Below, piece after piece: positions 35,956 through 62,786 of a DNA stretch of 64,000 nt. Made by a program: the position numbers and the translations under genes. The notes under the pieces are model-generated. The model was not told where the DNA came from, searched no databases, and saw nothing but the letters and a program-made list of their open reading frames with translations. Numbering within the stretch: position 1 is the first letter of the stretch; the number at the start of each line of letters is the position of its first letter. The DNA comes from a virus (lineage: Duplodnaviria; Caudoviricetes), in IMG/VR virus record IMGVR_UViG_3300044612_001981, positions 16,900-80,899 of that record; one strand, given 5' to 3'.

Positions 35956-37761
35956 CTATTCGCCAAATGACCTTACGAAATAGGAGGTTCCGTCAAGACC
36001 CTGACTGCTTTCAGATACAGTTAGCCCTGGATCAACCACAATCTTTGAGTTATCCGAGCAATACAGTCTATAATTATTGGCTGCCTCTGTAGGGGTAAAT
36101 GCCTTTTCATAAAAAGCTATATTATTGTATAAGTTTGAAGTTCCATACTCTGTGTCTAATTGATTTTGATTAAACTTAATATTTAAAGCAGGCTGGCTCA
36201 ACACTATTAGTATGTGGTGTGATACGTCGTTTAGAAAAAATGTAGATGTGTTTGCCTCAGATGTCCTATCTATACCATTTACATATATGGCAGAAATTCC
36301 AGCTTTTGTTATTGCTCCATTTGCCCCCCACTTAATTGATGAAGACGCTGAAGAGAATAATACATTCTGCCCCGCCCGTGGTGTAAAGAACATCTCTATT
36401 GTACGTGGCTCAATAGAAAGGTCTACCGAGAATCCATGTCCAGAATACATAGATATACCATTATATTTATTTTGCATTCTTACTGGATAATTATATTGAC
36501 CTAGAGCGTAGTCGTATTCCGAATATATCTTTGAGCCAGAGTTATCTGAATAGAAATCTTTATTGGAATACATATCAATTTCTAGCTTATTAAAATACGG
36601 AAGATCAAAGGATGCGTCATCTGTGGTCATAGTCACTCTTATATCAAATATCGGGCTCTCTGAGTTTTGGTTTTTGTTATAATAAGGCATAGGTGAATTA
36701 TTCTTGCATATTTCCCATGGCTGATCTGGTATCTTTATTTCAACTAAAACATTGTCTACGTCTTGACCATAGGAAAGTCTAGAAGAAACAATATCTTCAG
36801 GGTTTGAAATATATAGCCTATCTTCAAATACAAAAGACTTTGGTTCTGCGATATCTGTTTTTTCAAACTCAATCCTATTGTAAACAGAATTATAATATCC
36901 GTCTCCAGAAGCAATTTCTTCTAAGCTTTTTATTCCAGGATATGTGTATGAAATGTCTGGTCTTATTGATGTTGAATTTAATGAGAAAAATATTCCATTG
37001 TTTGAATAAACAATTTGTGAATACTTAGTTTCTTTATACCCAGACACATAGTGATTTAATATTTTTTGTTCAGTTAGCTCGTAAGCATAAATTGCTGCTG
37101 AATCAACAATAAACTTTTTTCCTACATTAGCTGGGCCTAAAGATAAATTTAAACTTGTATTAGTAAATTTAAAGCCACTGTTAACTGGGCTTTCAGAAGC
37201 TATTTTGCCATTTACATACAAAGATATTTTATCCTTGGAAAATATTCCAACGACATGCATGGCCTCATTTTTTTTGACTTTGTGCCAAACAAATTGTGTA
37301 GCGCTGCATTTAAAAATAATGTTTTCATTTTTATAGAATAGGCCAATTGAGTTCTCTGAATCTCCCATAATAAGATATTCTTCGTTGTCATCTTTGTCTG
37401 GACTAAACCATATTTCGAATGCAAATGCGCCGTCTGGATTTCTATTCATTCCAAGACCCAGTGCTTTTAGGCTTATTTGAGCATTTTCATTTATCTCAGT
37501 TCCTCTAATTCCCGCCCCAATAATAGGAAGTACTTCCATGCTTGAAGTATTAATTGCATACCCTTCCATGGAGTTTCCAGTGTAATCAATTATTGGCAAC
37601 CCGCTAACGGCAGCATATGAAACTCCGTTATCTCTTAGGTCTGCGTATGTTGAATATAGTGTAGTTAGATTGCTGTATACTCCAGCCTCACCAGAACGAA
37701 CTTCATCCAATAAGAAAAATGCAACTGGATTATCTTTTAAGACAGTGTATTTATATGACAT
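35956..37761 (-). CDS. virion protein with LamG/ConA-like domain
   Basis: Y...VL.DNPV.F..LDE; F..E.W, H.V......LYVNG, D..AIY...L....I..HY. Confidence 0.75.
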   Translation of the reverse strand: MSYKYTVLKDNPVAFFLLDEVRSGEAGVYSNLTTLYSTYADLRDNGVSYAAVSGLPIIDYTGNSMEGYAINTSSMEVLPIIGAGIRGTEINENAQISLKALGLGMNRNPDGAFAFEIWFSPDKDDNEEYLIMGDSENSIGLFYKNENIIFKCSATQFVWHKVKKNEAMHVVGIFSKDKISLYVNGKIASESPVNSGFKFTNTSLNLSLGPANVGKKFIVDSAAIYAYELTEQKILNHYVSGYKETKYSQIVYSNNGIFFSLNSTSIRPDISYTYPGIKSLEEIASGDGYYNSVYNRIEFEKTDIAEPKSFVFEDRLYISNPEDIVSSRLSYGQDVDNVLVEIKIPDQPWEICKNNSPMPYYNKNQNSESPIFDIRVTMTTDDASFDLPYFNKLEIDMYSNKDFYSDNSGSKIYSEYDYALGQYNYPVRMQNKYNGISMYSGHGFSVDLSIEPRTIEMFFTPRAGQNVLFSSASSSIKWGANGAITKAGISAIYVNGIDRTSEANTSTFFLNDVSHHILIVLSQPALNIKFNQNQLDTEYGTSNLYNNIAFYEKAFTPTEAANNYRLYCSDNSKIVVDPGLTVSESSQGLDGTSYFVRSFGE

Positions 37762-37764
37762 GTC

Positions 37765-38877
37765 TTAATTCTCTTCTAAGGCTTTAACTCTCGCTGTAAG
37801 CTCTTGAACTGCTTTTATTAAGGGTGAAATAAATTGATCGTATCTTAATCCCTGCATTGAGTCTTCTTGAGACATGTCTATTTTTACCCATCCCGCAAAG
37901 TCTTCTACTCCAGACTGATCTAAAACCTCTTTAACTTCTTGTGCTATTAATCCGTAATGAGTTCTTGTTCCAGGAACTGAAACTATGTCTCCGTCAACTA
38001 CTTCTTTACTGCCTTCAATAAACTTATAGCTTACTGGACGTAAAGAATTAACAAAATCTAAACCAAGAAGTGAGTCGGCAACTCCTGTTTTTAATCTTTC
38101 ATCAGAAGTATTTATTGTTCCAGTGTTAGAGTATATAGTTTTCCAAAATCTATTTGATGCTACACCAGCACCCGCATCTATTGGCTGTCCTATTGAGTAC
38201 AAGTTATTTGCAAGTGGGTACCAGTTTGAGTTTACTCCATATCCAGACGTTGTTGGAATATTTAATGAAATAGTTGTAGGTACTGGATCAATAGTTGCAC
38301 TAGATCCAGGGATTCCTTGTGGGCCTTGTGCTCCAGTTAATCCAGTTGCGCCTCTAGGTATTGTAAAAGCAAATACAGCATTCGTAGCGGTTCCAGTATT
38401 TGTGACAGAAGCATTTGTTCCAGCTGCACCAGTTGTTGTTGTTCCAATTGCTAGTGTAGTTGGCCCTGGTATTCCTTGTGGTCCTGCTGGGCCAACAGGC
38501 CCTTGTGGTAAAACAAGATTTAAAGTTTGTGAGGGACTTGTGCCAGATATAGTTGCAGCTGCATTTACACCAGACTCAACAGTTCCTATTGAAAGAACAT
38601 TAGATGGTCCTGGGCCTCCAATTATTCCATCCACACCTCTAGGTAATGTTAAATTTAATATTGCTGCTTCTGGTGTTCCTACATTTACTACTGACGCTGG
38701 AGTTGATGCGCTAACAGTTGTTACAGAGCCTATCGTTAAAGTACCTGAAGGCCCTTGTGGGCCAGGATGGTCGTCAAGATAGGCATCTACGTCGGCAGCA
38801 AGGTAACCAAGGTCTCTAGGGACGTCTGGCGTGTCTGTATACTGCGGGTATCTAAACCCTTTTCCTGTTGTGCTCAT
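37765..38877 (-). CDS. collagen-like fibre with C-terminal intramolecular chaperone
   Basis: Gly-X-Y runs (GPVGPAGPQGIPGP) alternating with L.IG.V...A.V.N.GT modules; TSDERLK...GLIAQEV. Confidence 0.85.
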   Translation of the reverse strand: MSTTGKGFRYPQYTDTPDVPRDLGYLAADVDAYLDDHPGPQGPSGTLTIGSVTTVSASTPASVVNVGTPEAAILNLTLPRGVDGIIGGPGPSNVLSIGTVESGVNAAATISGTSPSQTLNLVLPQGPVGPAGPQGIPGPTTLAIGTTTTGAAGTNASVTNTGTATNAVFAFTIPRGATGLTGAQGPQGIPGSSATIDPVPTTISLNIPTTSGYGVNSNWYPLANNLYSIGQPIDAGAGVASNRFWKTIYSNTGTINTSDERLKTGVADSLLGLDFVNSLRPVSYKFIEGSKEVVDGDIVSVPGTRTHYGLIAQEVKEVLDQSGVEDFAGWVKIDMSQEDSMQGLRYDQFISPLIKAVQELTARVKALEEN

Positions 38878-38897
38878 TTTTTTATTATACCACCTAT

Positions 38898-39548
38898 TTA
38901 CTTAATATATACATGTGAAGGACTCATGTATCTTGTGCCAGAAATAATTGGCTTTACCTCATGGAGATATGGAAGTTGTGAAGGAAACATTATTAGGCTT
39001 CCAGATTTTGGCTTTATTGTAATATTTTGATTAGGAAAATGTATTTCTCCGCCTTCATAATCATCGTTTATATAGGCAACAAGAGAGAATGCAAGCGAGG
39101 AGTCACCATCTTGACCATCAAAATGTGGTCCCATAGATTGTCCTTGGTTCCATTTTTTAATTGGCACACGACTTAACTCTAAATTATATTTGTCTTTGTC
39201 TAATCCATGTCCAGATAAATATTTATCTGTACACATTTCAAAGGCCATTAAAAAGCTATTAGCAATATAAAGAGTTTTTTTATCTGTTGAGTCTGAACCA
39301 GTAGCTTCTTTTAATTTATTTGGGAATATGTTTTTTGTAGCCCCGTAAATCAATGACTCATCATTACTGGCATTCCAATTTTCCCACTTAGAAATCCTAT
39401 TGTATGAAAGAGGGTCTGAGTCTATCTCTTCAATAAATTCCTTTAGGTGCTCTGGAAAGCTAAGAGCATTTTCCCAGTACCATATTTGAGGATCTAATAC
39501 CTTCAGATCAAACATTATAAACTGCTTAAAGATTGGCTCTGATTGCAT
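38898..39548 (-). CDS. 2OG-Fe(II) oxygenase, prolyl-4-hydroxylase-like
   Basis: HFD...YINDDYEGGE...H...RY. Confidence 0.9.
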   Translation of the reverse strand: MQSEPIFKQFIMFDLKVLDPQIWYWENALSFPEHLKEFIEEIDSDPLSYNRISKWENWNASNDESLIYGATKNIFPNKLKEATGSDSTDKKTLYIANSFLMAFEMCTDKYLSGHGLDKDKYNLELSRVPIKKWNQGQSMGPHFDGQDGDSSLAFSLVAYINDDYEGGEIHFPNQNITIKPKSGSLIMFPSQLPYLHEVKPIISGTRYMSPSHVYIK

Positions 39549-39549
39549 T

Positions 39550-40302
39550 TTATCCCTCTACTTCTGATGCTGGATACACTTCTCCACGTGGAGTTATTCT
39601 TAATCCCTTATTTCGATAATCTTCCCACTCAATAGCTTCATCTGCTTGTATGGCTCTAACCTGCCTAAGCTCTTCAGCCCATGCATCTCTTACTTCTTGT
39701 GGGTAATCTTCTTCTTCTCTATCATCCCAAAATGATCCAAGAGTGTAGCGTATTGATTTTTTAACTGTGGTGACTTCGTGCATATTATGGAAGCCTCCAG
39801 CAAATGTAACAAGTGTGCCAGTTTTGGGAACAATAGTTAATCCATGCTTGAAGTTTAACACTCCATCTTCAAAGTCATCATTCAGATAAAGAAATGTTGC
39901 GTATCTACTTCTGGTAAATGCACCAGCTACACCATCATTTGAAGTGTTATCTGAGTGCATATTGGCAAAAGCTCCTGGGGCCCATCTTTGTGAATGCCAG
40001 CTTATTTGAGACATTTGTTCTGGGTTTTTACCAGCCATATCTGCTGTTGCATCAATAACTCTTTGTCTTAATACTTGAAAAAAATCTCCTGGAAGTCCAC
40101 AATCAATTGTGTCTGGATCATTTACTTCTGGCATTCCAGACGAATATGATTCATAGAAAGAAATAGGCATCCACTTTAATTGCTCTTTTTCCATTTTAAT
40201 AGCAAGCACTTTAATTACTGATTGACATTCTTCTGGTGTCAAAAAGTTTTCATAAGTTACAATATCTGGCTGGTGCTTAGTTATAATCATGCTTCTTTCC
40301 AT
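39550..40302 (-). CDS. 2OG-Fe(II) oxygenase, prolyl-4-hydroxylase-like
   Basis: NFLTPEEC, HSD...YLNDDFEDG...H...RY. Confidence 0.9.
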   Translation of the reverse strand: MERSMIITKHQPDIVTYENFLTPEECQSVIKVLAIKMEKEQLKWMPISFYESYSSGMPEVNDPDTIDCGLPGDFFQVLRQRVIDATADMAGKNPEQMSQISWHSQRWAPGAFANMHSDNTSNDGVAGAFTRSRYATFLYLNDDFEDGVLNFKHGLTIVPKTGTLVTFAGGFHNMHEVTTVKKSIRYTLGSFWDDREEEDYPQEVRDAWAEELRQVRAIQADEAIEWEDYRNKGLRITPRGEVYPASEVEG

Positions 40303-40305
40303 GTT

Positions 40306-41121
40306 TTATTTTACTCCTGTGTCTTCTGGGGCGTACTCTTCATATGGAACTATTAATCCATCTTTAAAGTAGATCATGTTTCTCTTATCTTCATAATCTA
40401 TTCTTTCTGATTCCATTTTAGCCCATCGATATGCTCCAAATTTTCTTTGATTTGCAAGCCACTCTTCTGTGCCATTATGTGGTGTCATTATAAAGTTTCT
40501 AACAAAAAACTTTTCGTTAGTATTAATTGTTTTTACACCATGAAAATAAGGCTCTGTTGATGGGAAAACTAGAATGTCTCCAGCTTTTGGCTTATGATTA
40601 ATAAGATCACCATTAATATAAAATTCAATATCGCCGCCATCATAGTCATCATTAATATACATTGTACATGTAAGGAAAAATTTATCTCCAGGCATATCTC
40701 TTTGTGAGGTTATATGGTCTGTATGATATTGCATTGTCATGTTATTTTGCAATGAATCTATCTTTGCGTTGTATTTAGAATAGGAACATCCGCTAAATCT
40801 CCAGCCTTCTGGAAGCACTATTCCGTGTCTTTCAACATAATCTAATAAAACCTTATTATATGCCTCTTCAACTTCTTCTACAAATTTTTTTTCTTTCAAA
40901 AACATTTCTTCCTTTTGAATATCTAAAGAAACTTGGCTCATATCCTTTTTTTGTGAATAAGTTCCAAAATGAGCCCAAGGGTCCCAATTAGTTAAAAAAT
41001 ATTTGCCCTCTGAAGTTTTTTCTGATTCATTCATTATTGAATACATCTCAGATGGATTTTTTAAAACATTTCTATATACATCAACTTTTGGGTAAAGCTC
41101 TACATACTCTAAGTTATTCAT
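40306..41121 (-). CDS. 2OG-Fe(II) oxygenase, prolyl-4-hydroxylase-like
   Basis: HTD...YINDDYDGGD...HGV...K; start at 41121 by ATGA overlap. Confidence 0.88.
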   Translation of the reverse strand: MNNLEYVELYPKVDVYRNVLKNPSEMYSIMNESEKTSEGKYFLTNWDPWAHFGTYSQKKDMSQVSLDIQKEEMFLKEKKFVEEVEEAYNKVLLDYVERHGIVLPEGWRFSGCSYSKYNAKIDSLQNNMTMQYHTDHITSQRDMPGDKFFLTCTMYINDDYDGGDIEFYINGDLINHKPKAGDILVFPSTEPYFHGVKTINTNEKFFVRNFIMTPHNGTEEWLANQRKFGAYRWAKMESERIDYEDKRNMIYFKDGLIVPYEEYAPEDTGVK

Positions 41122-41804
41122 GGCTGTCTCTCTCCTGTGTGTTTGTTTATTGTCCAAAAAAATGGTGAAGTAAATCTATTGCCAGATTTAACTGGTCTAA
41201 CTCCATGCGTATAGTTCATGTCGCCTGGGAAAAAATATGCTGCTCCAGCAACTGGCTGGAATTCAATTCCATGTTGTGGGAAGTATAACTCGCCGCCTTC
41301 ATAGTCGTCGTTAAAATAAAAAAGACCAGCTAGATCATACCAAGGAAAGTCATTTGGCCTTCCTTTTTCTGGTCCAGAATGAAATTCTTTATCGGCATGA
41401 GGCTCTTGTCTTGCTCCTACTGGCCACCTAACAATTGCTGGTCCTGTTTCTTTTGCATCTACCTCAAAAAATTTATCTACTTCTATTTTTAATCTAGCTA
41501 TCATGCTATAAATTAACTCAAGTATCGAAGGGTCTGATGCCATTAAAGAATTATATGTGCAAACTCTGTCTTCCCAGACTTTGTGGTCATACAAAACTAG
41601 CCCATCTTCATCTACATGAGTTTCTGTTATGTCCCAAATTTTATTATTTAATGCAAAGTCCATAAGCCTAGTACGTTCTTCTATAGATAAAAAGTCTTTA
41701 ATTTCTACAATATTGCTTGATGAGTTACCAAAAAATCCAGATGGTGTTATGGACTTAGGTGCATTTCCGTTCCAGCTATTTGCCATTTTCATTTTTATCT
41801 CCAT
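41118..41804 (-). CDS. 2OG-Fe(II) oxygenase, prolyl-4-hydroxylase-like
   Basis: HAD...YFNDDYEGGE...HGV...RF. Confidence 0.9.
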   Translation of the reverse strand: MEIKMKMANSWNGNAPKSITPSGFFGNSSSNIVEIKDFLSIEERTRLMDFALNNKIWDITETHVDEDGLVLYDHKVWEDRVCTYNSLMASDPSILELIYSMIARLKIEVDKFFEVDAKETGPAIVRWPVGARQEPHADKEFHSGPEKGRPNDFPWYDLAGLFYFNDDYEGGELYFPQHGIEFQPVAGAAYFFPGDMNYTHGVRPVKSGNRFTSPFFWTINKHTGERQP

Positions 41805-42510
41805 GATTCATTATATCATTATTTACCTTAAGCCTTATTGCTTTTACTTGATGAGAGCCAATTTTTCTCTTTAAATGATCTACGGCGTCCCTATAAAAAT
41901 TAGACCATATCGCTTGTCTATTTAATTCGTATATTACATTAGAATACTCGTTTGGGTCAAATGATGGACTTTGCAAAGAGCCTACCGACTCAAAGTTTAT
42001 TTCAGAGTTTTGTAAGTCTTCTAGGTTAATTGGTAATATTGCAATTACTGGTGTTCCTGCTTTTATTGTTATTACTTCATTTGGTTTAGTTACCATCCAT
42101 GCACATGGTAATTCTCCTCTAAAAAAAGATGTACTAATTAAAGTTGTAAATGGAACAGCACCATCAATAAATAAATTAGGAACTGGCATGGACAATAAGC
42201 TAGAGTTTTTTTCTGTAGAAAACATTAGTCCTGTATTAAAACTAACAGTACCATTGGCTCTTCCAGAATATGCGTACTTTTCACCAGATAATATTTTTAC
42301 GTGATCTGGTGAGCTATCTGATACTCCATCCCATATAAAAGAAATGTCTTCTGGAAAAGATATACCCCAGCCCATTTGGTTTGTTAGACCAACTGGGAAA
42401 CACTTATATGCATGAGCTTCCCAAGTATTGTCCATCCAATCTCTTTTAATCGAAAGTGGATTAACTTCACCAAAACCCTCTCTTATAACATAAGCCTTAA
42501 TTTTATGCAT
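41776..42510 (-). CDS. DUF6065-like protein
   Basis: RDWMD....HAY.C.P....N..GW motif recognised from memory of the family. Confidence 0.65.
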   Translation of the reverse strand: MHKIKAYVIREGFGEVNPLSIKRDWMDNTWEAHAYKCFPVGLTNQMGWGISFPEDISFIWDGVSDSSPDHVKILSGEKYAYSGRANGTVSFNTGLMFSTEKNSSLLSMPVPNLFIDGAVPFTTLISTSFFRGELPCAWMVTKPNEVITIKAGTPVIAILPINLEDLQNSEINFESVGSLQSPSFDPNEYSNVIYELNRQAIWSNFYRDAVDHLKRKIGSHQVKAIRLKVNNDIMNHGDKNENGK

Positions 42511-43216
42511 TTTGATTTTTACCAGTTTTGGCGTCTTCTTCTACCCATTTGGCTCTCATTTGCATAAACTCTTGTCTATGAGCATGATCATTGTAGTCTA
42601 ACATTGTTACTATAGAAAATTTCATTCCAGATTCAACTGGCATTGCTCTATGTGAAAATAAATATGTAGATGGGAATATATATAGGTCACCAGCTTTTGG
42701 CTTAATATCTAGGTTTAACTTAGGAAAATAAAGATTTCCACCTTCATAGTCATCATTGACATATGCTACAAGAGATACAGTAGCACTATAAGAAAATCCA
42801 TGGTCAGCATGCTCTTGAAAATGTTGTCCCTTACCGTATCTAATGCAATTCATAACTTCCCAGTAATTCATTTTTACATTATACATTCCGCAATAATCAT
42901 CTACAGCTGGAGACTGATATTGCTTTAAGTCTGACCATAATTCTGAAACAAGCTTCTCTGTATTGGAATGAGGGTAAAGAATTTCACCTACCTTAATATC
43001 TTCACAATCTCTATAGGAGGGCCTTTTTTCACTATACCCTACAAATCCAAAAGTCCAAGCATATCTTGAATCTCCATCATTAACTGCAGACTGACCAATT
43101 GCATCTAAACGGTTAATAACGTCAATTTCTTTTTTAATTACATCTCTATAAACCCAGACTCCTGGTGCAAGCTGCTCTTTTGAAGAAAAAGAATAATTGT
43201 TGTTTAAATTTGTCAT
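42503..43216 (-). CDS. 2OG-Fe(II) oxygenase, prolyl-4-hydroxylase-like
   Basis: RY..GQHF..HAD...YVNDDYEGG...H...K. Confidence 0.9.
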   Translation of the reverse strand: MTNLNNNYSFSSKEQLAPGVWVYRDVIKKEIDVINRLDAIGQSAVNDGDSRYAWTFGFVGYSEKRPSYRDCEDIKVGEILYPHSNTEKLVSELWSDLKQYQSPAVDDYCGMYNVKMNYWEVMNCIRYGKGQHFQEHADHGFSYSATVSLVAYVNDDYEGGNLYFPKLNLDIKPKAGDLYIFPSTYLFSHRAMPVESGMKFSIVTMLDYNDHAHRQEFMQMRAKWVEEDAKTGKNQNA

Positions 43217-43247
43217 AAATACATTGTATCATTTCTATTTATACAGC

Positions 43248-43277
43248 ACAATAGCAGGGGTTTCCCCCTGCTATTGT
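43248..43277. terminator. hairpin between FFxPP gene and oxygenase operon
   Basis: ACAATAGCAGGGG-TTTC-CCCCTGCTATTGT. Confidence 0.75.
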
Positions 43278-43287
43278 TTTTTTATTA

Positions 43288-44178
43288 TTAGTAGAACCTG
43301 AGTCCGAAAGCGCCACCAAATGCTGGTGGGGAAAAGAACCCTGGTGGGGCAAAGAATCCTGGTGGTGAGAAGAATCCTGGTGGTGCGAAGAATCCTGGTG
43401 GTGAGAAGAATCCTGGTGGGAAAAACGGCGGTGCGAAGAAGCTTGGTGGGAAGAACGGTGGGAAGAACGGTGGTGCGAAGAACACTGGTGGGAAGAACGG
43501 TGGGAAAAACGGTGGTGCGAAGAAGCTTGGTGGGAAGAACGGTGGGAAGAACGGTGGCGAAAAGAAGCTTGGTGCAAGAGTAGTAACTGTGTTAGAGTTA
43601 CTAGATGCAACTGATCTTCCATTAGCATTATCTGCATATACGTTGTAATACTGAGATGTTCCAGCAGTATCTGCAATTGATACAGATAGTCCAGTTGAAT
43701 TTCCAGTTGTTCCGTCATTACCAGCAATATAATAGTTGGTAATTGCAGTTCCACCATTTGATGGAGCTGCCCAGCTTACTGTGTTAGCATTTACTCCAGC
43801 TGTTGCAGAAACGCTTGTTGGAGCGGCTGGAACAGTTGTTGCAGTTGCTGAGGCTGAGTTTGAATCTGCAGAAGTATTAAAAGAGTCTACTGCTTTTACG
43901 GTATATGAATAAGATGTTCCACCAGCTAATCCAGTATCAGAATATGTAACAGTTGGAGCATTTACTGTTGCTATCTCTGTTCCATTTCTGAATACCTTAT
44001 ACTGAGTTGGAGTGTTACCTGCAGCGGGAGCTGTCCATGCAAGGTTAATCATACCATTGTTAAATGGTCTTTGATTATTAACACCATTTAAATGATTTGT
44101 TGCTGTAAGGCCTGTTGGTGCATTTGGGCCAATGAAGTTGTCTTGAGCTGATGCTCTTCTACCTATATTTTTTGACAT
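43288..44178 (-). CDS. virion protein: two FN3 domains plus Phe/Pro repeat tail
   Basis: P.APTGL, L.W..P, Y.V.RNG, Y.DTGL, YSYTV.AV; C-terminal FF(x)PP repeats; AGGAG RBS. Confidence 0.85.
   Translation of the reverse strand: MSKNIGRRASAQDNFIGPNAPTGLTATNHLNGVNNQRPFNNGMINLAWTAPAAGNTPTQYKVFRNGTEIATVNAPTVTYSDTGLAGGTSYSYTVKAVDSFNTSADSNSASATATTVPAAPTSVSATAGVNANTVSWAAPSNGGTAITNYYIAGNDGTTGNSTGLSVSIADTAGTSQYYNVYADNANGRSVASSNSNTVTTLAPSFFSPPFFPPFFPPSFFAPPFFPPFFPPVFFAPPFFPPFFPPSFFAPPFFPPGFFSPPGFFAPPGFFSPPGFFAPPGFFSPPAFGGAFGLRFY
43324..43569 (-). repeat. 16 tandem FFPP / xFFxPP coding units (12- and 18-bp)
   Basis: 82 aa counted from translation. Confidence 0.95.
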
Positions 44179-44198: not shown

Positions 44199-47189
44199 TT
44201 ATGCTTTCAAGTCTCCAGCAAGTAACCATGTATCTGTTGCTACCTTGGTTATTGTTGCTGATGAATGTAAGGCTCTTAGCTTTAGTCCTGGAGTTCTTAA
44301 TATTGTAACTCCAGCTGCTTCTGCAAATACTGCGTCTGCTCCAGCTGATTGGTAGAAGCTTATTGAAGTTCCTACTGGATAAGCTGTAGTTGCATTTGCA
44401 GGAACTGTAATTGTGTGTGCTCCAGAAACTGGAATTAACTGATCTCTTAGACCTAACCCACCTGTTGATAGATTGTATGCTCCAGCAATTGCTGTTCCAA
44501 TTACAGTCCGTGAAGGAACTCCTTCTCTTGTCTGTGTTCCGTCTGTAAATGCTATTCCAGATGCTGCAACCGTTACTGTTCCAGTAAATGTTGGTGCGTT
44601 AAGTGGAGCAAATCCTGAAATGCTTGCGCCTGCTGGTATTGTGACTGTTCCTGTAAATGTTGGTGAATCTGTTGGTGCTATTACAGAATAATTTGTTCCA
44701 TCATTTGTAAATTCCCACTTATCAGTAGATTCGTTCCAACGTAGTTGAACAGCGTTAGAATCTCCACGAACAATTCTTATTCCTGAGTTCTCTGTTGGAG
44801 ATCCAGTAGTAAAATTGCTGTTTAGGTCAATAATGTTATCGGCCAAAGAAATTGTTTCTGTGTTAACGCTTGTAGTTGTTCCGCTTACTGTTAGGTTTCC
44901 ACCAACAACAAGGTTTCCATTTACTTCTGCATTATCATTAAGATAAACTTTTCCTGTACCGTTTCCAGATAGTGATAGGTCTGTGTTTAATGTTTTGCTT
45001 GCTATTAAGTCAGACTTGATGCCGTTGCTAAATGCAATTCCATTTCCGTCTGCGCTTGAGAAGTTTGCTCCCGCTTCAACAACTAGAGGTCCCTTGATAT
45101 TAACAGAACCAGTTCCTGTTGGATCTAGTTCTATGTTACCGCTTCCGCTTGTTCTTAGTCCAAGATTTTCATCAACATCAGCAGAAACAACGATTGCTCC
45201 TGATTCATCTTGAAGAACCTTCTGGCCATTAACATAAAGTGATCCTGGACCTACGTAGATATCTTTCCACATCTTTGTAGGAGAACCTAGGTCGTATGTG
45301 TTGTCTGTAGAAGGAATAACACTTCCACCTGCAGTAACTGCTGGAAGAACTACTGTTCCTGTAAATGTTGGATCTGCAAGAGGTGCCTTTAGAGCAAGAG
45401 CATCTGTTGCAGTTGTTCCAATTGCATCTGCATAAGACTTTGTTGCAAGAAGTGATGTGTCTGCAATTCCATGAACATCTGTAGTATCTGCACTGTGTGT
45501 TGAAAGAGCGGTAGCTGCTGACCCAAACTGTGTTTGAATGCTAGATGTAACACCATTCAAATAAGATATTTCTGTAGCATCAACATCTCCTATTGTTGTT
45601 GAAGAAGGCAAAACTACTAATCCTGTAAATGTTGGGCCTTCTTTAGTAGCAAGTAAATCTAGATCTTCTGCAAGTCCTGCTATCTTAGATTGTGCAATTT
45701 CAGCTGTAGGACTAATTTTTGCATTAGTAATAGAATCATCTGAAATTTTATCGACTGTTATTGCTTGGCTTGATACCTTGGCTGTAACTATAGATCCGTC
45801 TTCAATTTTATCTGAATTTACAGATCCGTCTGCAATCTTAGCTGTAGTAACAGCTTCATCTGCAATCTTATTAGTGCTTACAGAAAGATTTGCAATTTTA
45901 TTTTCTGTTACGGCAGAATCTTCAATTTTGGCTGTAGTTACAGAGTTATTTGCAATCTTAGCTGTATTTACAGCATTAGCTGCAATTTTGTTGTTAGTTA
46001 CAGCGGAGTCTGCAATCTTATTTTCACTTACAGCAGAATCTGCGATTTTGTTTGTTGATACAGAATCATTAGCGATTTTAGCAGATGTAACTGCATCTGG
46101 TGCAATCTTTGCTGTTGTTATAGATTCAGCAATTATTTTATCAGTTGATACTGATGAGTCTGCAAGTTTAACTGTAGTAACAGATGCATCTGGGACTACA
46201 TTAAGCTTTGTATCGATTTGAGCTTGAATGTTTGATGTAACATCAGAAAGCATCTGAATTTGCTGTGGGCTAACTGCTCCTATTTGAGCTCCGCTAGCAA
46301 ATATTTGACCAACTTCAAGTGGTGCTCTGGTGTATGTAGTAAAGTCTACTGTTGTGGTAGGCTCAGCAACTACTCCTGAGAAAAGCTTCCAAATTCCGTC
46401 TGAAGCATCACGGACAAGACCAGTATGCTGATATGTTCCATTATTAAATGCTCCTACAACACCAACATCAAGTACGTTTGATTGATTGCCATCACCAATA
46501 TAAATCATTGGGTCATCATATGAAACATTTGTTGAGTTAACAGTAGTTGATGTTCCACTAACAGTTAAATTACCGTTAATATTTACATCGTTTGCTGTTA
46601 AAAGATTTTCTGCAACTAAATTTACTCCTGTTATAGTGTCTCCAGAAATATTTGCAGTTGTGTGAATAGCAGAAGTAAAGTTATTTAATGCAATTTGTGC
46701 TACTGGAATTTTAGTATTTGCATCAAGTGAGGCAACTCCATTTTGAGCTCCTCTATCTGAAACTGGAATATAATCTTCCAAGGAGTTATTTACTCCACTA
46801 ATTGCTGCATCTGTATAATCTTCTGCTGCTGCAATTGCTGCTGCCTGTGCCGCTGCAGACTTTGTATTTGCCTCTGATGTAGCAAATGTTTTTGTTGAAA
46901 TAACATCTGTATCTACAGTTATTGTAATTGTATTGGTGCCATCGTTGTATGTCTTTGTAAGACCTGCACCCATTGAAAGAGCTTGATCTATGGCATCTTG
47001 TGATATTTCGCCAATTGCTGCTGTATCAGCAGCGGCGTATGAAAGGGCTGTCCATGTAGAAGAGCCATTTCCAAATTTAAATTTATTAGTGTTTGTTTCA
47101 ACACCCATTTCACCTGCAGCCAATACTGGATTTGCTGCGGTCCATTCTGAAGCTAAACCTCTACGTACTTGAATTCTTACTGTTGACAT
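44199..47189 (-). CDS. long fibre protein with Mtd/hyaluronidase-like N-terminal anchor and 10-aa repeats
   Basis: IQVRRG.ASEW...NPVLA.GE.G.ET.T...K.G.G; PTFTG repeats; ends W.L.GDL. Confidence 0.8.
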   Translation of the reverse strand: MSTVRIQVRRGLASEWTAANPVLAAGEMGVETNTNKFKFGNGSSTWTALSYAAADTAAIGEISQDAIDQALSMGAGLTKTYNDGTNTITITVDTDVISTKTFATSEANTKSAAAQAAAIAAAEDYTDAAISGVNNSLEDYIPVSDRGAQNGVASLDANTKIPVAQIALNNFTSAIHTTANISGDTITGVNLVAENLLTANDVNINGNLTVSGTSTTVNSTNVSYDDPMIYIGDGNQSNVLDVGVVGAFNNGTYQHTGLVRDASDGIWKLFSGVVAEPTTTVDFTTYTRAPLEVGQIFASGAQIGAVSPQQIQMLSDVTSNIQAQIDTKLNVVPDASVTTVKLADSSVSTDKIIAESITTAKIAPDAVTSAKIANDSVSTNKIADSAVSENKIADSAVTNNKIAANAVNTAKIANNSVTTAKIEDSAVTENKIANLSVSTNKIADEAVTTAKIADGSVNSDKIEDGSIVTAKVSSQAITVDKISDDSITNAKISPTAEIAQSKIAGLAEDLDLLATKEGPTFTGLVVLPSSTTIGDVDATEISYLNGVTSSIQTQFGSAATALSTHSADTTDVHGIADTSLLATKSYADAIGTTATDALALKAPLADPTFTGTVVLPAVTAGGSVIPSTDNTYDLGSPTKMWKDIYVGPGSLYVNGQKVLQDESGAIVVSADVDENLGLRTSGSGNIELDPTGTGSVNIKGPLVVEAGANFSSADGNGIAFSNGIKSDLIASKTLNTDLSLSGNGTGKVYLNDNAEVNGNLVVGGNLTVSGTTTSVNTETISLADNIIDLNSNFTTGSPTENSGIRIVRGDSNAVQLRWNESTDKWEFTNDGTNYSVIAPTDSPTFTGTVTIPAGASISGFAPLNAPTFTGTVTVAASGIAFTDGTQTREGVPSRTVIGTAIAGAYNLSTGGLGLRDQLIPVSGAHTITVPANATTAYPVGTSISFYQSAGADAVFAEAAGVTILRTPGLKLRALHSSATITKVATDTWLLAGDLKA
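45710..46192 (-). repeat. about 16 copies of 10-aa (xAVTxxKIAD) repeat
   Basis: 30-bp periodicity, diverged at DNA level. Confidence 0.85.
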
Positions 47190-49747: not shown

Positions 49748-49978
49748 TTACCATTTGCCTATTGGGCACTTTGCCGCCTGTAGTTTTGTTTTTAGATTCA
49801 TTATACATCCGCATTTTTTGCATTGGGATGTCAGGCTTATTAGTTCTGGGCATGATCTGCATATTGACATTCTTGAATTTGATACTTCTTCTTCAGCATG
49901 CATTGTCATTGGATTTAACAAGTCTAAGGGGGTAACTCCGTTTTTATCTTTGTACTCTTGCCACCTTGATTTAGCCAC
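49748..49978 (-). CDS. small Cys-rich protein
   Basis: R..IC..CP......CKKCGC....K......CP..KW; GTG start with AAGGAG RBS. Confidence 0.75.
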   Translation of the reverse strand: MAKSRWQEYKDKNGVTPLDLLNPMTMHAEEEVSNSRMSICRSCPELISLTSQCKKCGCIMNLKTKLQAAKCPIGKW

Positions 49979-50014: not shown

Positions 50015-50437
50015 TTAATTATGGTCTGTTTTTCTATTCTGAATAGGGTGCCATTCTAAAAGAGAGGACATATCTGCATTTAAAATAGTAAACTTTTCTC
50101 CATCAAATGTTGCATGAGGAGAAACTACGTACATCCCATATGGATAGTCTAATAAATTTAATACCTGTGGGTTACTTAATAAAATGCTGCCAAAATACTC
50201 TGAAGTTTGAAAGTCATCAATTGTAATTCCGTCTTTTATAAATCTAACAGTAATTCCATTATGATCTGGATGCTCTTCGGAAACATCAATAACTTCATCA
50301 TGGCTTACAAACATATTGGCATAGTTTTGCCATGTTGGTATATCATATAAACATTCTCCATCTATAACCCAAACTAAAGGTACTCCATTTACGCCGTCTT
50401 CGGCTCTAACGTATAAAATACTTGAATCTGTTAACAT
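50015..50437 (-). CDS. hypothetical protein
   Basis: AAAGGA RBS; follows mosaic FFxPP gene. Confidence 0.7.
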   Translation of the reverse strand: MLTDSSILYVRAEDGVNGVPLVWVIDGECLYDIPTWQNYANMFVSHDEVIDVSEEHPDHNGITVRFIKDGITIDDFQTSEYFGSILLSNPQVLNLLDYPYGMYVVSPHATFDGEKFTILNADMSSLLEWHPIQNRKTDHN

Positions 50438-50455
50438 AGTATTCCTTTCATATTA

Positions 50456-60777: not shown

Positions 60778-60927
60778 ATGACCAGAGATTATTTTGCAAA
60801 ATATATGATGAGTCCTAAATTTCAAGAGGATGAAAAGCTAAAAGCTGATCATAAGAGAGTTTGCCAAAGATGCCGTGATGGAATAGTAAAATTTTATTTT
60901 AAGAAAATTATCAATAGGGGGAAATAA
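60778..60927 (+). CDS. hypothetical protein
   Basis: MTRDYF... just downstream of TGCTATAAT; TAATG coupling to next gene. Confidence 0.55.
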   Translation: MTRDYFAKYMMSPKFQEDEKLKADHKRVCQRCRDGIVKFYFKKIINRGK

Positions 60928-61775
60928 TGTTCTACGATAGAGAAGATTGCACTAAAGTTTCATTTTTTCCAGATGATTACGGAACGCCAAGCGGAGTTTT
61001 TGTCTTTAAAGGGTTTTACACTGACGAAGAGTGTAAGATAGTTGAGGATGCCTTAAAAGACTACCAATATGATCAAAAATATGAAGATACATTAATAAGC
61101 TGGTATGCAGATAAGCTGAGCCCACCTATTTTAGGATTACATAAGTTATGGGAAAAGGCAAGCGAAATGCTTTACCCAGAATATGTTATACACCCACAAA
61201 ACAATGTGCTTGTTATAAGCGAACACATGAATCAGGGTATGTTTACTCATTCTGATTCTCCAGGCAAAGGCGAGTGCCACAGACTTTCTCAGGTTGACGT
61301 ATGGAAGACATGTTGTGAGCTAGATTTTGGCCTAGTTGCTTACTTTGGAGACTTTGAAGGCGGAGAAATATTCTACGTAAACATTGATAAAGATGGTAAT
61401 AAAAATCCAGCAGTAGGAGAAGAAAATAGGTTAACTATTAAGCCAGAAAGAGGAGACCTAATTGTGCATGGTGCATTTGATCCTCATACACATGGTGTTG
61501 AAAAAGTTACCAAGGGAGTACGTTATGCATTTTCAAACTTTGTTCTTAAAGCAGAAGATAATCCAGGAACTTTTCACAACTATAAGAGCCCAGAATATAA
61601 TGTTCAGATAAAAGAAGCATACAACGGAGACTTTGAGCATTTTCAAAATGTATGGATGATGCCACTTAAACAGAATCCTCAGTTCACCCCAGAGCTAATT
61701 AAAAAATATCAAGCTTCTGGACTAGAGGGAGAAGCTTTGTCAGATATGTTTATGGGAGAATTTAAAGAGCATTAA
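60927..61775 (+). CDS. 2OG-Fe(II) oxygenase
   Basis: HSD...YFGDFEGGE...HGV...RY. Confidence 0.88.
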   Translation: MFYDREDCTKVSFFPDDYGTPSGVFVFKGFYTDEECKIVEDALKDYQYDQKYEDTLISWYADKLSPPILGLHKLWEKASEMLYPEYVIHPQNNVLVISEHMNQGMFTHSDSPGKGECHRLSQVDVWKTCCELDFGLVAYFGDFEGGEIFYVNIDKDGNKNPAVGEENRLTIKPERGDLIVHGAFDPHTHGVEKVTKGVRYAFSNFVLKAEDNPGTFHNYKSPEYNVQIKEAYNGDFEHFQNVWMMPLKQNPQFTPELIKKYQASGLEGEALSDMFMGEFKEH

Positions 61776-62151: not shown

Positions 62152-62786
62152 ACATCCCGTCTCTTTTCTAGTATATCTTTGTCTAAATCACTGATTACCT
62201 TTTCTCTTTGTGTTTCTTTATTTAAATCTTTTGGAATTGGTACATAAGGCAAATTCATAAAAATTAATGATCCCCTAGGAGTTAAAGGTGTTGTTTCATG
62301 CAAAGTCCACCCTCTCATATACAAAACATCTCCTGACTCTAATATAACTCTATGCTCTGTCTTGCTTTCATCATAAGGGTCTATTAGTAGCCATTCTACT
62401 TTACCAAAACAATTAATGTGAACTACGTCAGACTGGTCGTTGTGAAGAACAGCATGAACACTTTTATTATGTACGTCTCCTGTTTGCATAAGACTTAAGT
62501 AGTATGTATCGGTATTCCCATAAAGCTTAGATAATTCTTTTACCGTCATTGACCAATCAGGAAAGTATCTTAAATCATCATTTGATATATCCTCTCTTGT
62601 ATTTCTTCTACAAGATTTATCAAAAGTTTCAAGAATTTCTTTATGGTAGTAGTTAGAGTAATTTAAAAAATCTTTTTCAGTAACCTGCCAATCTATGCCA
62701 TTTTTTAAAACGTAAAATGGTAGATCTTGCAGCTTAGCTTCTAATATAGCTTGAACTATTTTATTCTTCATATATATCCTAGTCAA
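62148..62786 (-). CDS. JmjC/cupin-type oxygenase
   Basis: HND.SDV......G...W...L.SGDVLY.....LH. Confidence 0.75.
   Translation of the reverse strand: MTRIYMKNKIVQAILEAKLQDLPFYVLKNGIDWQVTEKDFLNYSNYYHKEILETFDKSCRRNTREDISNDDLRYFPDWSMTVKELSKLYGNTDTYYLSLMQTGDVHNKSVHAVLHNDQSDVVHINCFGKVEWLLIDPYDESKTEHRVILESGDVLYMRGWTLHETTPLTPRGSLIFMNLPYVPIPKDLNKETQREKVISDLDKDILEKRRDV

What the first reader, a model, noticed from the sequence alone, without database searches (positions are those of the whole stretch)
37765..44178. Prolyl-hydroxylase array between two proline-repeat virion proteins: candidate phage appendage-modification system
Seen: five divergent 2OG-Fe(II) oxygenases, each with an intact HxD...H triad and R/K, plus a DUF6065-like gene form one block with its own leaderless promoter inside the structural region. 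Upstream lies an FN3 protein ending in 16 FF(x)PP units; downstream lies a Gly-X-Y collagen-like fibre. A second FFxPP protein lies about 6 kb away. Established: P4H-family enzymes hydroxylate Pro in collagen and poly-Pro/extensin-like substrates, and Hyp can be glycosylated. Inference: the paralogues are site-specific tailoring enzymes (Pro, possibly Phe) for the FFxPP and collagen tracts, giving a RiPP-like or extensin-like decoration of virion fibres rather than generic auxiliary metabolism. No glycosyltransferase is visible in this window.
Basis: partly seen in the sequence, partly recalled or inferred. Interest (0 to 1): 0.88.

Follow-up and report, generated by a model that had tools for sequence, protein, structure and literature searches.

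The report
Phage Phe-Pro fibre tract with hydroxylases
An uncultured lake phage encodes a fibre-region protein that ends in a phenylalanine-proline repeat and is directly followed by five prolyl-hydroxylase-like enzymes; repeat and enzymes are present or absent together in related phages, so the repeat is their likeliest target, though no chemistry has been shown.

Summary
On the minus strand lie an FN3 protein ending in 16 FF(x)PP units, five PF13640 oxygenases with intact HxD...H plus K/R, one DUF6065 gene, then a fibre with short Gly-X-Y runs and an S74 chaperone domain. The 81-kb record holds at least nine such oxygenases.

Ox1 is closest, in sequence and in fold, to solved prolyl hydroxylases. 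Of 67 portal-anchored rows, 51 have array and FFxPP gene, 11 have neither, and none has FFxPP alone. In 4 of the 5 apparent exceptions the repeat lies just past the fetched DNA.

The collagen link fails: array-less relatives keep long Gly-X-Y fibres, and some array-bearing relatives lack this fibre. No GT1 or GT2 glycosyltransferase was found.

New here:
- DUF6065 has a dUTPase-like fold.
- In relatives the tract is capped by a Hint (intein-like) or S74 self-processing domain, which marks it as a fibre part.

The closest published kin is the Syn9 cyanophage tandem dioxygenase array with a dUTPase-fold protein (Iyer et al. 2010).

The link is genomic only, and array and repeat gene are neighbours. 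This scan has already reported the same module in eight other genomes.

The parts
50456..52927 (-). Second FFxPP protein (823 aa): 8 FFxPP units at 50606-50737, then a Cys-rich end
   Evidence: homologues in relatives carry a Hint-like domain after the tract
49748..49978 (-). DUF6171 Cys-rich small protein; in several relatives it is directly followed by an oxygenase
   Evidence: PF19668 E 1.4e-6; adjacency
44199..47189 (-). Mtd_N-type tail fibre protein (996 aa) directly upstream of the FFxPP gene
   Evidence: PF18454 E 5.4e-14 and tail-fibre PHROGs; the order fibre, FFxPP, oxygenases is kept in distant lineages
43288..44178 (-). FN3 protein (296 aa) with a C-terminal tract of 16 FF(x)PP units (43324-43566); candidate substrate
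   Evidence: 33 relatives of the tract at E <= 1e-3, mostly with FN3
43248..43277 (.). 13-bp G+C-rich hairpin just after the FFxPP gene's stop
   Evidence: hairpins of other sequence at the same place in relatives
43223..43251 (-). Promoter-like TTGTGC, 17 nt, TGATACAAT, ending 6 nt before the ATG of Ox1 (would give a leaderless mRNA)
   Evidence: read; conserved in relatives; not called by the consensus scan
42503..43216 (-). Ox1, P4H-like 2OG-Fe(II) oxygenase (H136, D138, H189, K199)
41776..42510 (-). DUF6065 protein (244 aa) with a dUTPase-like fold in residues 1-171; invariant Cys37
   Evidence: PF19541; model pLDDT 92.1; dUTPases at Z 8.0-11.2; alignment
41118..41804 (-). Ox2, the most conserved paralogue (H136, D138, H200, R210)
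40306..41157 (-). Ox3 (H145, D147, H206, K216)
39550..40302 (-). Ox4 (H116, D118, H175, R185)
38898..39548 (-). Ox5 (H142, D144, H196, R206)
37765..38877 (-). Fibre protein (370 aa) with four short Gly-X-Y runs and a C-terminal Peptidase_S74 chaperone domain (37912-38106); not tied to the array in relatives
35956..37761 (-). LamG/ConA-like 601-aa protein, kept next to the portal in all relatives; marks the edge of the swappable fibre cassette
   Evidence: PF13385 E 7.6e-14
60927..61775 (+). Ox6, a further PF13640-like gene; its homologues sit at the end of the array in divergent relatives
62779..63501 (-). Ox7, a further PF13640 gene
   Evidence: PF13640 E 2.4e-7

Best explanation
This is a fibre-tailoring module of a widespread group of uncultured freshwater tailed phages.

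The substrate is the (F/Y)F(x)PP tract that ends one or two fibre-region proteins. Here these are the 296-aa FN3 protein and the 823-aa protein. The five paralogous prolyl-hydroxylase-like 2OG-Fe(II) oxygenases hydroxylate residues of that tract after translation. Its Pro-Pro pairs are the most likely targets. The enzymes are made from their own promoter, together with the downstream fibre genes. Hydroxylation would change the stiffness, solubility or stickiness of this very hydrophobic appendage.

The paralogues are old and each is kept. They probably divide the work by sequence context or by position on the ring.

The dUTPase-fold DUF6065 protein is a non-catalytic or accessory partner of the enzymes. 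Its role is open.

Shown: gene content, catalytic residues, folds, gene order, and the joint presence and absence of array and tract. Inferred: that the tract is the substrate, that proline is the target, and what the modification does.
For: 1. Enzyme kind. PF13640 scores lie over the cut-off for all five, with the triad and K/R intact. The best solved sequence match of Ox1 is Bacillus anthracis P4H, E 2.5e-7. The profile gives 34 matches at E <= 0.01: P4H, P3H, lysyl hydroxylases and PHD, besides PiuC/PKHD-type hydroxylases and one unassigned 2OG-Fe(II) oxygenase. The Ox1 model (pLDDT 90.2) is nearest to TaPHD Z 19.9, PPHD with EF-Tu 19.5, CrP4H 18.2 and chlorovirus vCPH 17.4. AlkB-type enzymes score about 13-14.

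2. Association with the tract. Of 67 rows (54 distinct portals) with at least 9 kb upstream of the portal, 51 have array and FFxPP gene, 11 have neither, 5 have the array only, and 0 have FFxPP only. The array state changes at least 5 times on the portal tree. In 4 of the 5 'array only' records, FFPPFFPP-coding DNA lies 200-860 nt beyond the fetched edge.

3. Array-less whole records. One is a complete 104,555-bp genome and one a 91-kb record. Both have no oxygenase, no DUF6065 and no tract.

4. Loci fetched by the repeat's DNA alone. 71 of 80 flanked loci have an FFxPP ORF. Of these 71, 58 have at least 1 oxygenase, 49 have at least 3, and 48 have DUF6065. Large FFxPP proteins without a neighbouring array lie in records that hold PF13640 genes elsewhere in 5 of 7 cases.

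5. Depth. The order Mtd_N fibre, FFxPP protein, oxygenases with DUF6065 is kept in lineages whose DUF6065 is only 25-30% identical.

6. Control in cellular genomes. 120 stretches carry the same DNA pattern. Nearly all are 2-unit chance matches, and only 2 loci hold any oxygenase. One of those two has an 11-unit tract, 8 oxygenases and DUF6065.

7. The tract is part of a fibre. In relatives it is followed in frame by an S74 chaperone domain, E 3.6e-11. In others it is followed by a Hint domain with Cys1 and a C-terminal HN, whose profile matches the Pho RadA intein at 6.4e-8 and a bacterial intein-like domain at 1.5e-5.

8. Precedents. Chlorovirus PBCV-1 P4H hydroxylates that virus's Pro-Ala-Pro-Lys repeats (PMC3634087, passages). 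In two cyanophages the nearest homologues of Ox1 sit beside collagen-like genes with a glycosyltransferase, or directly after an S74 fibre gene.
Against: - No chemistry, no expression data and no interaction test.
- Array and FFxPP gene are neighbours inside a fibre cassette that is swapped as a whole. Array-less relatives also lack the Mtd996, p120 and p185 homologues. Joint gain and loss may therefore be one event each time.
- Only 3 independent pairs lie on supported branches. All agree, but p = 0.25.
- A hairpin and a promoter separate the enzymes from the FFxPP gene.
- Four more oxygenase genes lie far from any FFxPP gene.
- 13 of 71 FFxPP loci show no oxygenase in the fetched DNA, and 2 of 7 whole records checked have none, though both are fragments.
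- One array-bearing record lacks the exact double-unit pattern.
- PF13640 enzymes are not all prolyl hydroxylases. Nucleoside-modifying PolD and PasI are also close in fold, Z 15.7 and 15.4.
- The dUTPase-like fold of DUF6065 points, if anywhere, to nucleotides.
- Only Ox1 was folded.
Confidence: 0.45

Rival explanations
1. The oxygenases are host-directed or metabolic enzymes of the kind proposed for cyanophages. They would modify host proteins such as translation factors, or small molecules, or drain 2-oxoglutarate. They sit beside the FFxPP gene only because both lie in a hypervariable fibre cassette.
For: - Their nearest phage homologues are the multi-copy '2OG-Fe(II) oxygenases' of Synechococcus and Prochlorococcus phages: 406 records, all under 60% identity and about 26-35% among the 40 listed.
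- Published proposals for those enzymes are 2OG and nitrogen physiology or DNA repair (PMC3037559, passages), and secondary-metabolite synthesis (PMC2938197, passages).
- Close structural neighbours include PPHD with EF-Tu and OGFOD1/Tpa1, which act on the translation apparatus.
- The array has its own promoter, with a hairpin in front.
- Four further copies are scattered over the record.
- The whole cassette is exchanged as a block.
Against: - The pairing with FFxPP genes holds in lineages with 25-30% DUF6065 identity and in other gene layouts.
- Records with non-adjacent large FFxPP proteins mostly hold arrays elsewhere.
- The array is followed by fibre genes after gaps of 20 and 3 nt, so it is probably co-transcribed with them.
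- No FFxPP gene without an array was seen among 67 portal-anchored rows.
Confidence: 0.27
2. The block makes or modifies a nucleotide, nucleoside or other small molecule. DUF6065 would be the nucleotide-binding component and the oxygenases would be tailoring enzymes.
For: - DUF6065 has a dUTPase-like fold: 14 dUTPase-type chains at Z 8.0-11.2, dCTP deaminases at 5.8-7.2, and unrelated folds at 4.3 or less.
- Nucleoside-antibiotic oxygenases PolD and PasI are among the Ox1 neighbours, Z 15.7 and 15.4.
- The Syn9 array, with a dUTPase-fold protein, was proposed to make secondary metabolites (PMC2938197).
Against: - DUF6065 matches no dUTPase family in Pfam at E <= 0.01 and no solved dUTPase by sequence.
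- Its conserved residues do not look like the dUTPase motifs as I recall them.
- dUTPase folds are reused in viruses for protein binding. Herpesvirus pp71 and ORF10 are among the matches.
- No halogenase, synthetase or nucleotide enzyme lies in the block.
- Prolyl hydroxylases outrank the nucleoside enzymes in both sequence and fold.
Confidence: 0.1
3. The main substrate is the Gly-X-Y fibre downstream, or collagen-like fibres in general, as for collagen prolyl 4-hydroxylases.
For: - The S74 fibre with Gly-X-Y runs starts 20 nt after Ox5.
- In cyanophage S-CAM7 an Ox1 homologue lies in a cluster with two collagen-like proteins rich in G-P-P and a glycosyltransferase.
- Bacillus anthracis P4H, the best sequence match, is annotated as a procollagen-proline dioxygenase.
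Against: - Array-less relatives keep Gly-X-Y fibres of 13-23 triplets.
- Array-bearing relatives such as L022, L029, L198 and L231 lack this fibre.
- The window's own runs are only 3-6 triplets long.
Confidence: 0.06

Closest known systems
Tandem dioxygenase array of Synechococcus phage Syn9 (gp41-gp54), described by Iyer, Abhiman, de Souza and Aravind 2010 (PMC2938197; passages read)
   Same: [quoted passage not shown]
- In the record the array follows directly on tail-fibre and fibre-assembly genes.
- Syn9 gp43 matches the DUF6065 profile weakly: my HMM E 9.5e-7 among 25 proteins, hhalign probability 32%, E 4.9e-4.
   Different: - Syn9 has two tryptophan halogenases and a JmjC/MINA-type member. 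None was found here.
- The Syn9 fibre-region proteins checked have no FFxPP tract.
- Pfam does not place gp43 in PF19541.
- The authors proposed metabolite synthesis, not fibre modification.
- Syn9 is a T4-like myovirus of marine cyanobacteria. The phage here has a tape-measure gene and comes from lake water.
Chlorovirus PBCV-1 prolyl 4-hydroxylase (vCPH, PDB 5c5t) and that virus's proline-rich repeats
   Same: - A virus encodes both a P4H-type enzyme and proline-rich repeat proteins.
- The enzyme hydroxylates Pro in Pro-Ala-Pro-Lys repeats (PMC3634087, passages).
- vCPH is a close neighbour of Ox1 in sequence (profile E 7.6e-8) and in fold (Z 17.4, rmsd 2.6 over 160 residues).
   Different: - One enzyme there, five to eleven here.
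- An algal virus rather than a phage.
- The repeat here is aromatic (FFPP, xFFAPP) and sits on fibre-region proteins with Hint or S74 caps.
- Activity is shown there and not here.
Multi-copy 2OG-Fe(II) oxygenases of marine cyanomyoviruses (PHROG 61)
   Same: - Best PHROG for all five enzymes, E 1.5e-16 to 3.7e-22.
- Nearest phage homologues by tblastn.
- Known to resemble human prolyl hydroxylase EGLN3 in fold, with unknown substrate (PMC12774648, passages).
- In S-CAM7 and Sf-FS3 the homologues lie beside collagen-like or S74 fibre genes.
   Different: - Identity is about 26-35% among the 40 listed records.
- No FFxPP tract or DUF6065 hit was found in the phage collection at the sensitivity used.
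- The published readings concern 2OG/nitrogen physiology or DNA repair (PMC3037559).
Bacterial intein-like (BIL) / Hint domains, e.g. PDB 2lwy
   Same: In relatives the FFxPP tract is followed by a roughly 165-aa domain with Cys at position 1, Thr at 6 and a C-terminal His-Asn. Its profile matches inteins and a BIL domain.
   Different: - The window's own two FFxPP proteins have no such domain.
- Pfam scores stay below the cut-offs.
- No nucleophile follows the His-Asn, so cleavage rather than splicing is expected. This is inference.

Membership tests
P4H-like 2OG-Fe(II) oxygenases (Pfam PF13640) | Profile score over the curated cut-off (27 bits) | tested here: met
   Ox1-5 score 53.0, 32.9, 35.8, 32.6 and 44.3 bits
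P4H-like 2OG-Fe(II) oxygenases (Pfam PF13640) | HxD...H iron triad and a basic residue that binds 2OG about 10 residues after the distal His | tested here: met
   H, D and H are invariant in alignment A1. K or R stands at +10 in all five. That +10 is the 2OG-binding position in collagen P4H is recalled, not tested.
P4H-like 2OG-Fe(II) oxygenases (Pfam PF13640) | Double-stranded beta-helix fold closest to solved prolyl hydroxylases | tested here: met
   Ox1 only: model pLDDT 90.2. Top matches are TaPHD Z 19.9 (rmsd 3.4, 200 aligned), PPHD 19.5, CrP4H 18.2 and vCPH 17.4. Ox2-5 were not folded.
P4H-like 2OG-Fe(II) oxygenases (Pfam PF13640) | Hydroxylation of peptidyl proline | not testable with these tools
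   Needs an enzyme assay or mass spectrometry
Collagen prolyl hydroxylase system (enzyme plus Gly-X-Y substrate) | The enzyme goes with Gly-X-Y proteins across relatives | tested here: not met
   Array-less relatives have Gly-X-Y runs of 13-23 triplets. Array-bearing relatives without the S74 collagen-like fibre exist.
DUF6065 (Pfam PF19541) | Profile score over the cut-off (26.6 bits) | tested here: met
   98.8 bits, E 4.5e-28. 1716 relatives at E <= 1e-3; the 120 listed carry PF19541 and have no functional name.
Trimeric dUTPase / dCTP deaminase superfamily | dUTPase-like beta fold | tested here: met
   Model pLDDT 92.1. Foldseek's top matches are all dUTPases. VIA-align gives M. tuberculosis dUTPase Z 11.2 (rmsd 5.9, 130 aligned) and WSSV dUTPase Z 10.9 (rmsd 2.7, 116 aligned). 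Unrelated folds score 4.3 or less.
Trimeric dUTPase / dCTP deaminase superfamily | Sequence membership and catalytic motifs | tested here: not met
   No dUTPase family in Pfam at E <= 0.01. No solved dUTPase at significance by profile; the best is E 0.6 for WSSV Wsv112. The motifs were compared by eye from recall only.
Trimeric dUTPase / dCTP deaminase superfamily | Homotrimer with active sites at the interfaces | not tested
Syn9-type tandem dioxygenase array (Iyer et al. 2010) | Several tandem divergent 2OG dioxygenases plus a dUTPase-fold protein with a conserved Cys | tested here: met
   Five tandem oxygenases. DUF6065 fold with invariant Cys37. Paper passages.
Syn9-type tandem dioxygenase array (Iyer et al. 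2010) | Tryptophan halogenases and a JmjC/MINA-type member in the cluster | tested here: not met
   No such Pfam family among the window ORFs scanned
Hint / bacterial intein-like domain (on the FFxPP proteins) | Cys1, a conserved Thr, a C-terminal His-Asn, and profile similarity to inteins | tested here: not met
   Not met for the window's own proteins: the 296-aa protein ends 11 residues after the tract and the 823-aa protein ends in a Cys-rich tail. Met in relatives: alignment A5, Pho RadA intein E 6.4e-8 and BIL 2lwy E 1.5e-5. Pfam Intein_splicing matched 11 of 13 members, with scores under the cut-off where shown.
RiPP-type precursor and tailoring system | A short precursor peptide with leader and core, released as a small product | tested here: not met
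   The tracts are C-terminal or internal parts of FN3 proteins of about 160-1400 aa. They are capped by S74, Hint or Cys-rich domains.

The most novel reading that the evidence does not exclude
The oxygenase battery turns the (F/Y)FPP tract into a heavily hydroxylated stalk or glue at the tip of a phage fibre. This could mean mono- and di-hydroxyproline, and perhaps oxidised aromatic side chains, in the manner of plant extensins or mussel foot proteins.

It would be the first enzymatically hydroxylated virion protein of a bacteriophage. It would also give a substrate class to the orphan P4H-like oxygenases (PHROG 61) that are spread through aquatic phages, including the Syn9-type arrays.
Probability: 0.3. 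Interest if true: 0.85.

Novelty: new variant of a known kind. Interest (0 to 1): 0.62.

Why it matters
Aquatic phages carry very many prolyl-hydroxylase-like 2OG oxygenases whose substrates have been unknown since the first cyanophage genomes. Published ideas are DNA repair, 2OG/nitrogen physiology and metabolite synthesis.

This module offers a concrete, cheap test. The candidate substrate is encoded next door, is a simple repeat that can be made as a peptide, and is present or absent together with the enzymes.

If the test is positive, three things follow:
- Phages would be shown to tailor their own fibres by oxidation.
- DUF6065, a large phage family of unknown function, would gain a role.
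- A new Pro/Phe fibre element with self-processing caps would be defined.

The module is common in lake metagenomes. At least 581 IMG/VR stretches encode related portals, and there are 1716 DUF6065 relatives.

Tried and rejected
- Complex prediction (Ox1 with a 40-residue piece of the tract) was not available, so no binding test was made.
- No RNA holder was listed for the stretch.
- tblastn of DUF6065 against the phage collection found no match.
- The DUF6065 profile against solved sequences gave nothing significant.
- The ESM Atlas gave only unnamed viral clusters.
- The DUF6065 alignment was too diverse for a genome-contig scan.
- blastn of the 6.4-kb block against the phage collection found no match.
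- WhiB (PF02467) is not in the record, so that actinophage marker gives no host support.
- The promoter and terminator scan was not enriched over shuffles and did not call the proposed promoter.
- Repeat type against oxygenase repertoire:
  - 6-mer-type tracts go with the Ox1-4 groups in 37-38 of 38 loci.
  - 4-mer and FFP-type tracts have Ox3/Ox4 less often (13 of 33; 15-19 of 26) and carry extra clusters.
  - Phylogeny and cut loci were not controlled, so I draw no conclusion.
- Paper searches found no description of FFxPP tracts, of DUF6065, or of hydroxylated phage fibres. Subscription journals are not covered.
- Figure 4 and the supplements of PMC2938197 were not seen, so the identification of gp43 as their dUTPase-fold protein is my inference.

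Full report
**What is there**

The window is bases 16900-80899 of an 80,899-bp IMG/VR virus record, estimated 72% complete. Near-identical DNA is held in lake-water metagenome runs from several studies: 7 runs hold at least half of the sampled words, and 2 of those may be the source.

All genes of interest lie on the minus strand. In the direction of transcription the order is:
- ribonucleotide reductase
- two Mtd_N fibre genes
- an 823-aa protein with 8 FFxPP units
- several small genes, including DUF6171
- an Ala-rich 468-aa fibre
- a 996-aa Mtd_N fibre
- the 296-aa FN3 protein with 16 FF(x)PP units
- Ox1, DUF6065, Ox2, Ox3, Ox4, Ox5
- a 370-aa fibre with short Gly-X-Y runs and a Peptidase_S74 domain
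- a LamG protein
- portal, protease and major capsid protein
- further on, a 3624-aa tape-measure protein

Three corrections apply. The record holds at least nine PF13640-type genes. The Gly-X-Y runs are only 3-6 triplets long. The enzyme block runs on into fibre genes with gaps of 20 and 3 nt.

**The enzymes**

All five pass the Pfam cut-off for PF13640. They keep the HxD...H triad and a K or R ten residues after the distal His. They are only 22-29% identical to Ox1. Yet each has its own orthologue at about 50-90% identity in relatives, so the duplications are old and each copy is kept. In relatives whose portal is 53-55% identical (L022, L029), Ox2 is 76-80% identical.

Sequence places them with protein hydroxylases. 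Ox1 alone matches Bacillus anthracis P4H at E 2.5e-7. A profile of Ox1 orthologues and the paralogues matches 34 solved sequences at E <= 0.01. They are P4H, P3H1, lysyl hydroxylases and PHD2, besides PiuC/PKHD-type hydroxylases and one unassigned 2OG-Fe(II) oxygenase.

The Ox1 model has pLDDT 90.2. Its closest structural neighbours are:
- Trichoplax PHD, Z 19.9
- Pseudomonas PPHD with EF-Tu, 19.5
- Chlamydomonas P4H, 18.2
- chlorovirus vCPH, 17.4
- nucleoside-tailoring PolD and PasI, 15.7 and 15.4
- AlkB-type enzymes, about 13-14

This supports 'prolyl-hydroxylase-like'. It does not name the substrate.

**DUF6065**

The gene is a clear PF19541 member. The family has 1716 relatives at E <= 1e-3. 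The 120 listed come from genome and metagenome assemblies and none has a functional name. No paper in the library mentions it.

A model built on 36 homologues has pLDDT 92.1. Residues 1-171 have a dUTPase-like fold. Foldseek's best matches are all dUTPases. VIA-align gives 14 dUTPase-type chains at Z 8.0-11.2 and dCTP deaminases at 5.8-7.2; everything else scores 4.3 or less.

Sequence searches find no dUTPase family. The invariant residues include a Cys. [quoted passage not shown] Syn9 gp43 matches the DUF6065 profile weakly, although Pfam does not place it in the family. In Syn9 the array also follows directly on the tail-fibre and fibre-assembly genes.

**Does the array go with the proline repeats?**

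I used three independent ways of fetching relatives.

1. *By DUF6065.* This gave 34 IMG/VR loci. The shown loci that reach far enough keep the order FFxPP gene, Ox1, one or two DUF6065 genes, then Ox2-5 (part of that output was cut).

2. *By the portal.* At least 581 related stretches exist, and the best 80 were kept.
   - I pooled all loci that have a near-full portal and at least 9 kb upstream. That left 66 of 107 loci, plus the window, giving 67 rows. Some rows are the same contig fetched twice, so there are 54 distinct portal sequences.
   - Of the 67 rows, 51 have array and FFxPP gene, 11 have neither, 5 have the array only, and none has FFxPP only.
   - In the five 'array only' loci the array reaches the edge of the fetched DNA. 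In four of them the FFPPFFPP-coding pattern lies 200-860 nt beyond that edge. The fifth has no exact double unit.
   - The array state changes at least five times on the portal tree. Only three independent pairs lie on supported branches. All three agree, but the sign test gives p = 0.25.
   - Two long array-less records have no oxygenase, no DUF6065 and no tract anywhere. One is a complete 104,555-bp genome with terminal repeats.

3. *By the repeat's DNA alone*.
   - 71 of 80 flanked loci hold an FFxPP ORF. Of these 71, 58 have at least one oxygenase, 49 have at least three, and 48 have DUF6065.
   - Thirteen show no oxygenase in the fetched DNA. Seven of these are large FFxPP proteins. Whole-record searches found PF13640 genes elsewhere in five of the seven; the other two are fragments of 31% and 18% estimated completeness.

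Distant lineages, with DUF6065 only 25-30% identical, keep the order Mtd_N fibre, FFxPP protein, oxygenases with DUF6065.

As a control I scanned one genome per prokaryote species with the same pattern. Only two loci held any oxygenase. One of them has an 11-unit tract with 8 oxygenases and DUF6065, on a 17-kb contig binned with a lake Luteolibacter MAG.

**What weakens this**

Array and FFxPP gene are neighbours. The array-less relatives have swapped the whole fibre cassette upstream of the LamG gene and also lack the Mtd996, p120 and p185 homologues. Each joint gain or loss may therefore be a single recombination event. The best evidence against mere linkage comes from the non-adjacent cases and from the depth of conservation. 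That evidence is suggestive, not decisive.

**The collagen half fails**

Array-less relatives carry Gly-X-Y fibres of 13-23 triplets. Many array-bearing relatives lack the 370-aa fibre: it is replaced by an Ox6-like gene, or the LamG gene follows directly.

**What the tract is**

It is always in frame behind FN3 or other fibre-region domains. Its length ranges from 3 to 28 units across relatives. F and Y alternate at the first position.

In relatives it is followed by one of four endings (that rough classifier left 68 of 177 distinct proteins as 'other', many of which are visibly Hint-like):
- a roughly 165-aa Hint domain, with Cys at position 1 and a C-terminal His-Asn
- a Peptidase_S74 chaperone domain
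- a Cys-rich tail
- a short end

The Hint profile matches inteins and a bacterial intein-like domain, but Pfam scores stay under the cut-offs. The S74 domain in L091 is clear, E 3.6e-11. Self-processing caps of this kind are typical of fibres. The in-frame domains also show that the FFxPP frame is the translated one. The window's own two proteins lack Hint: one ends 11 residues after the tract and the other has a Cys-rich tail.

**Regulation**

A hairpin follows the FFxPP gene. Then come TTGTGC, 17 nt, TGATACAAT, 6 nt, and the ATG of Ox1. Relatives have different hairpin sequences, but they keep TGATACAAT or TTGACA-17-TATAAT six to seven bases before the ATG. The consensus scan does not call this promoter. 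No RNA data were at hand.

**Other leads**

In two cyanomyoviruses the nearest homologues of Ox1 also sit in fibre regions. In S-CAM7 the homologue lies beside two collagen-like proteins rich in G-P-P, a glycosyltransferase and a tail protein. In Sf-FS3 it lies directly after a giant S74 fibre gene. A cyanomyovirus virion proteome lists an Ofd1-like prolyl hydroxylase (PMC12801897, passages). The Phold paper notes that PHROG 61 proteins resemble human EGLN3 (PMC12774648, passages). PBCV-1 P4H hydroxylates that virus's own Pro-rich repeats (PMC3634087, passages).

**Verdict**

The best reading is a fibre-tailoring module in which P4H-like enzymes act on the FFxPP tract (confidence 0.45). The main rival is host-directed or metabolic action with linkage by cassette (0.27).

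It is a new variant of known kinds, namely the Syn9-type dioxygenase arrays and viral P4H with Pro-rich repeats. I found no paper on the tract itself.

Earlier agents of this scan reported the same module on eight other genomes, with similar readings. I reached the Hint caps and the presence/absence pattern before reading those notes. The Syn9 paper was their lead, which I then checked.

Noticed in passing
window 15731-26605 (-): A 3624-aa ORF with a PhageMin_Tail domain (E 3.9e-25), presumably the tape measure. At the usual ratio of length to residues it would give a very long tail.
   Followed up: no
window 31472-32521 (-): The major capsid protein is 58-62% identical to those of 127-134 kb Streptomyces phages. 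With the leaderless-type promoter and 34-41% G+C, this hints at a low-GC freshwater actinobacterial host. However, WhiB is absent from the record.
   Followed up: partly
relatives, e.g. L025:3614-4111, L027:7580-8077, L010:1262-1720: Hint (intein-like) domains cap the FFxPP tract in many relatives. They start with Cys right after '...F-K/G' and end in His-Asn with no nucleophile behind. This suggests self-cleavage, or transfer of the tract's C-terminus.
   Followed up: partly
window 49748-49978 (-) and relatives L008, L010, L013, L188, L196, L204, L059, L069: DUF6171, a small protein with Cys pairs, is directly followed by an oxygenase in several relatives. This includes an otherwise array-less one (L204). 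In the window it stands alone.
   Followed up: no
L022, L029 against the window: Ox2 is 76-80% identical where the portal is only 53-55% identical. Either the constraint is very strong or the enzyme cassette has been exchanged between lineages.
   Followed up: no
L285 (genome contigs): A 17-kb contig binned with a lake Luteolibacter MAG carries an 11-unit tract, 8 oxygenases and DUF6065. It is probably a phage contig, and at best a weak host hint.
   Followed up: no
L370 (Synechococcus phage S-CAM7) and L371 (Sf-FS3): In S-CAM7 the order is collagen-like proteins with G-P-P runs, a glycosyltransferase, a 2OG oxygenase and a tail protein. In Sf-FS3 two P4H-like genes follow a giant S74 fibre gene. 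Both are possible fibre-hydroxylation modules in cyanophages.
   Followed up: partly
window 43239-43757 (-), 43320-43583 (+), 50431-50787 (-): Long ORFs in other frames over the repeat DNA, giving His/Ser/Arg-rich repeats. They are by-products of the repeat. The FFxPP frame is the one continued by FN3, and in relatives by Hint or S74 domains.
   Followed up: yes
window 7209-7670 and 7852-10662 (-): A second fibre set lies beyond the tape measure: a 936-aa protein with FN3 and Peptidase_S74 domains, and an H-type lectin protein.
   Followed up: no
L041, L045, L081, L113, L069: Unassigned ORFs of about 240-250 aa recur inside the arrays of distant lineages. They may be further divergent oxygenases or DUF6065 relatives.
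   Followed up: no
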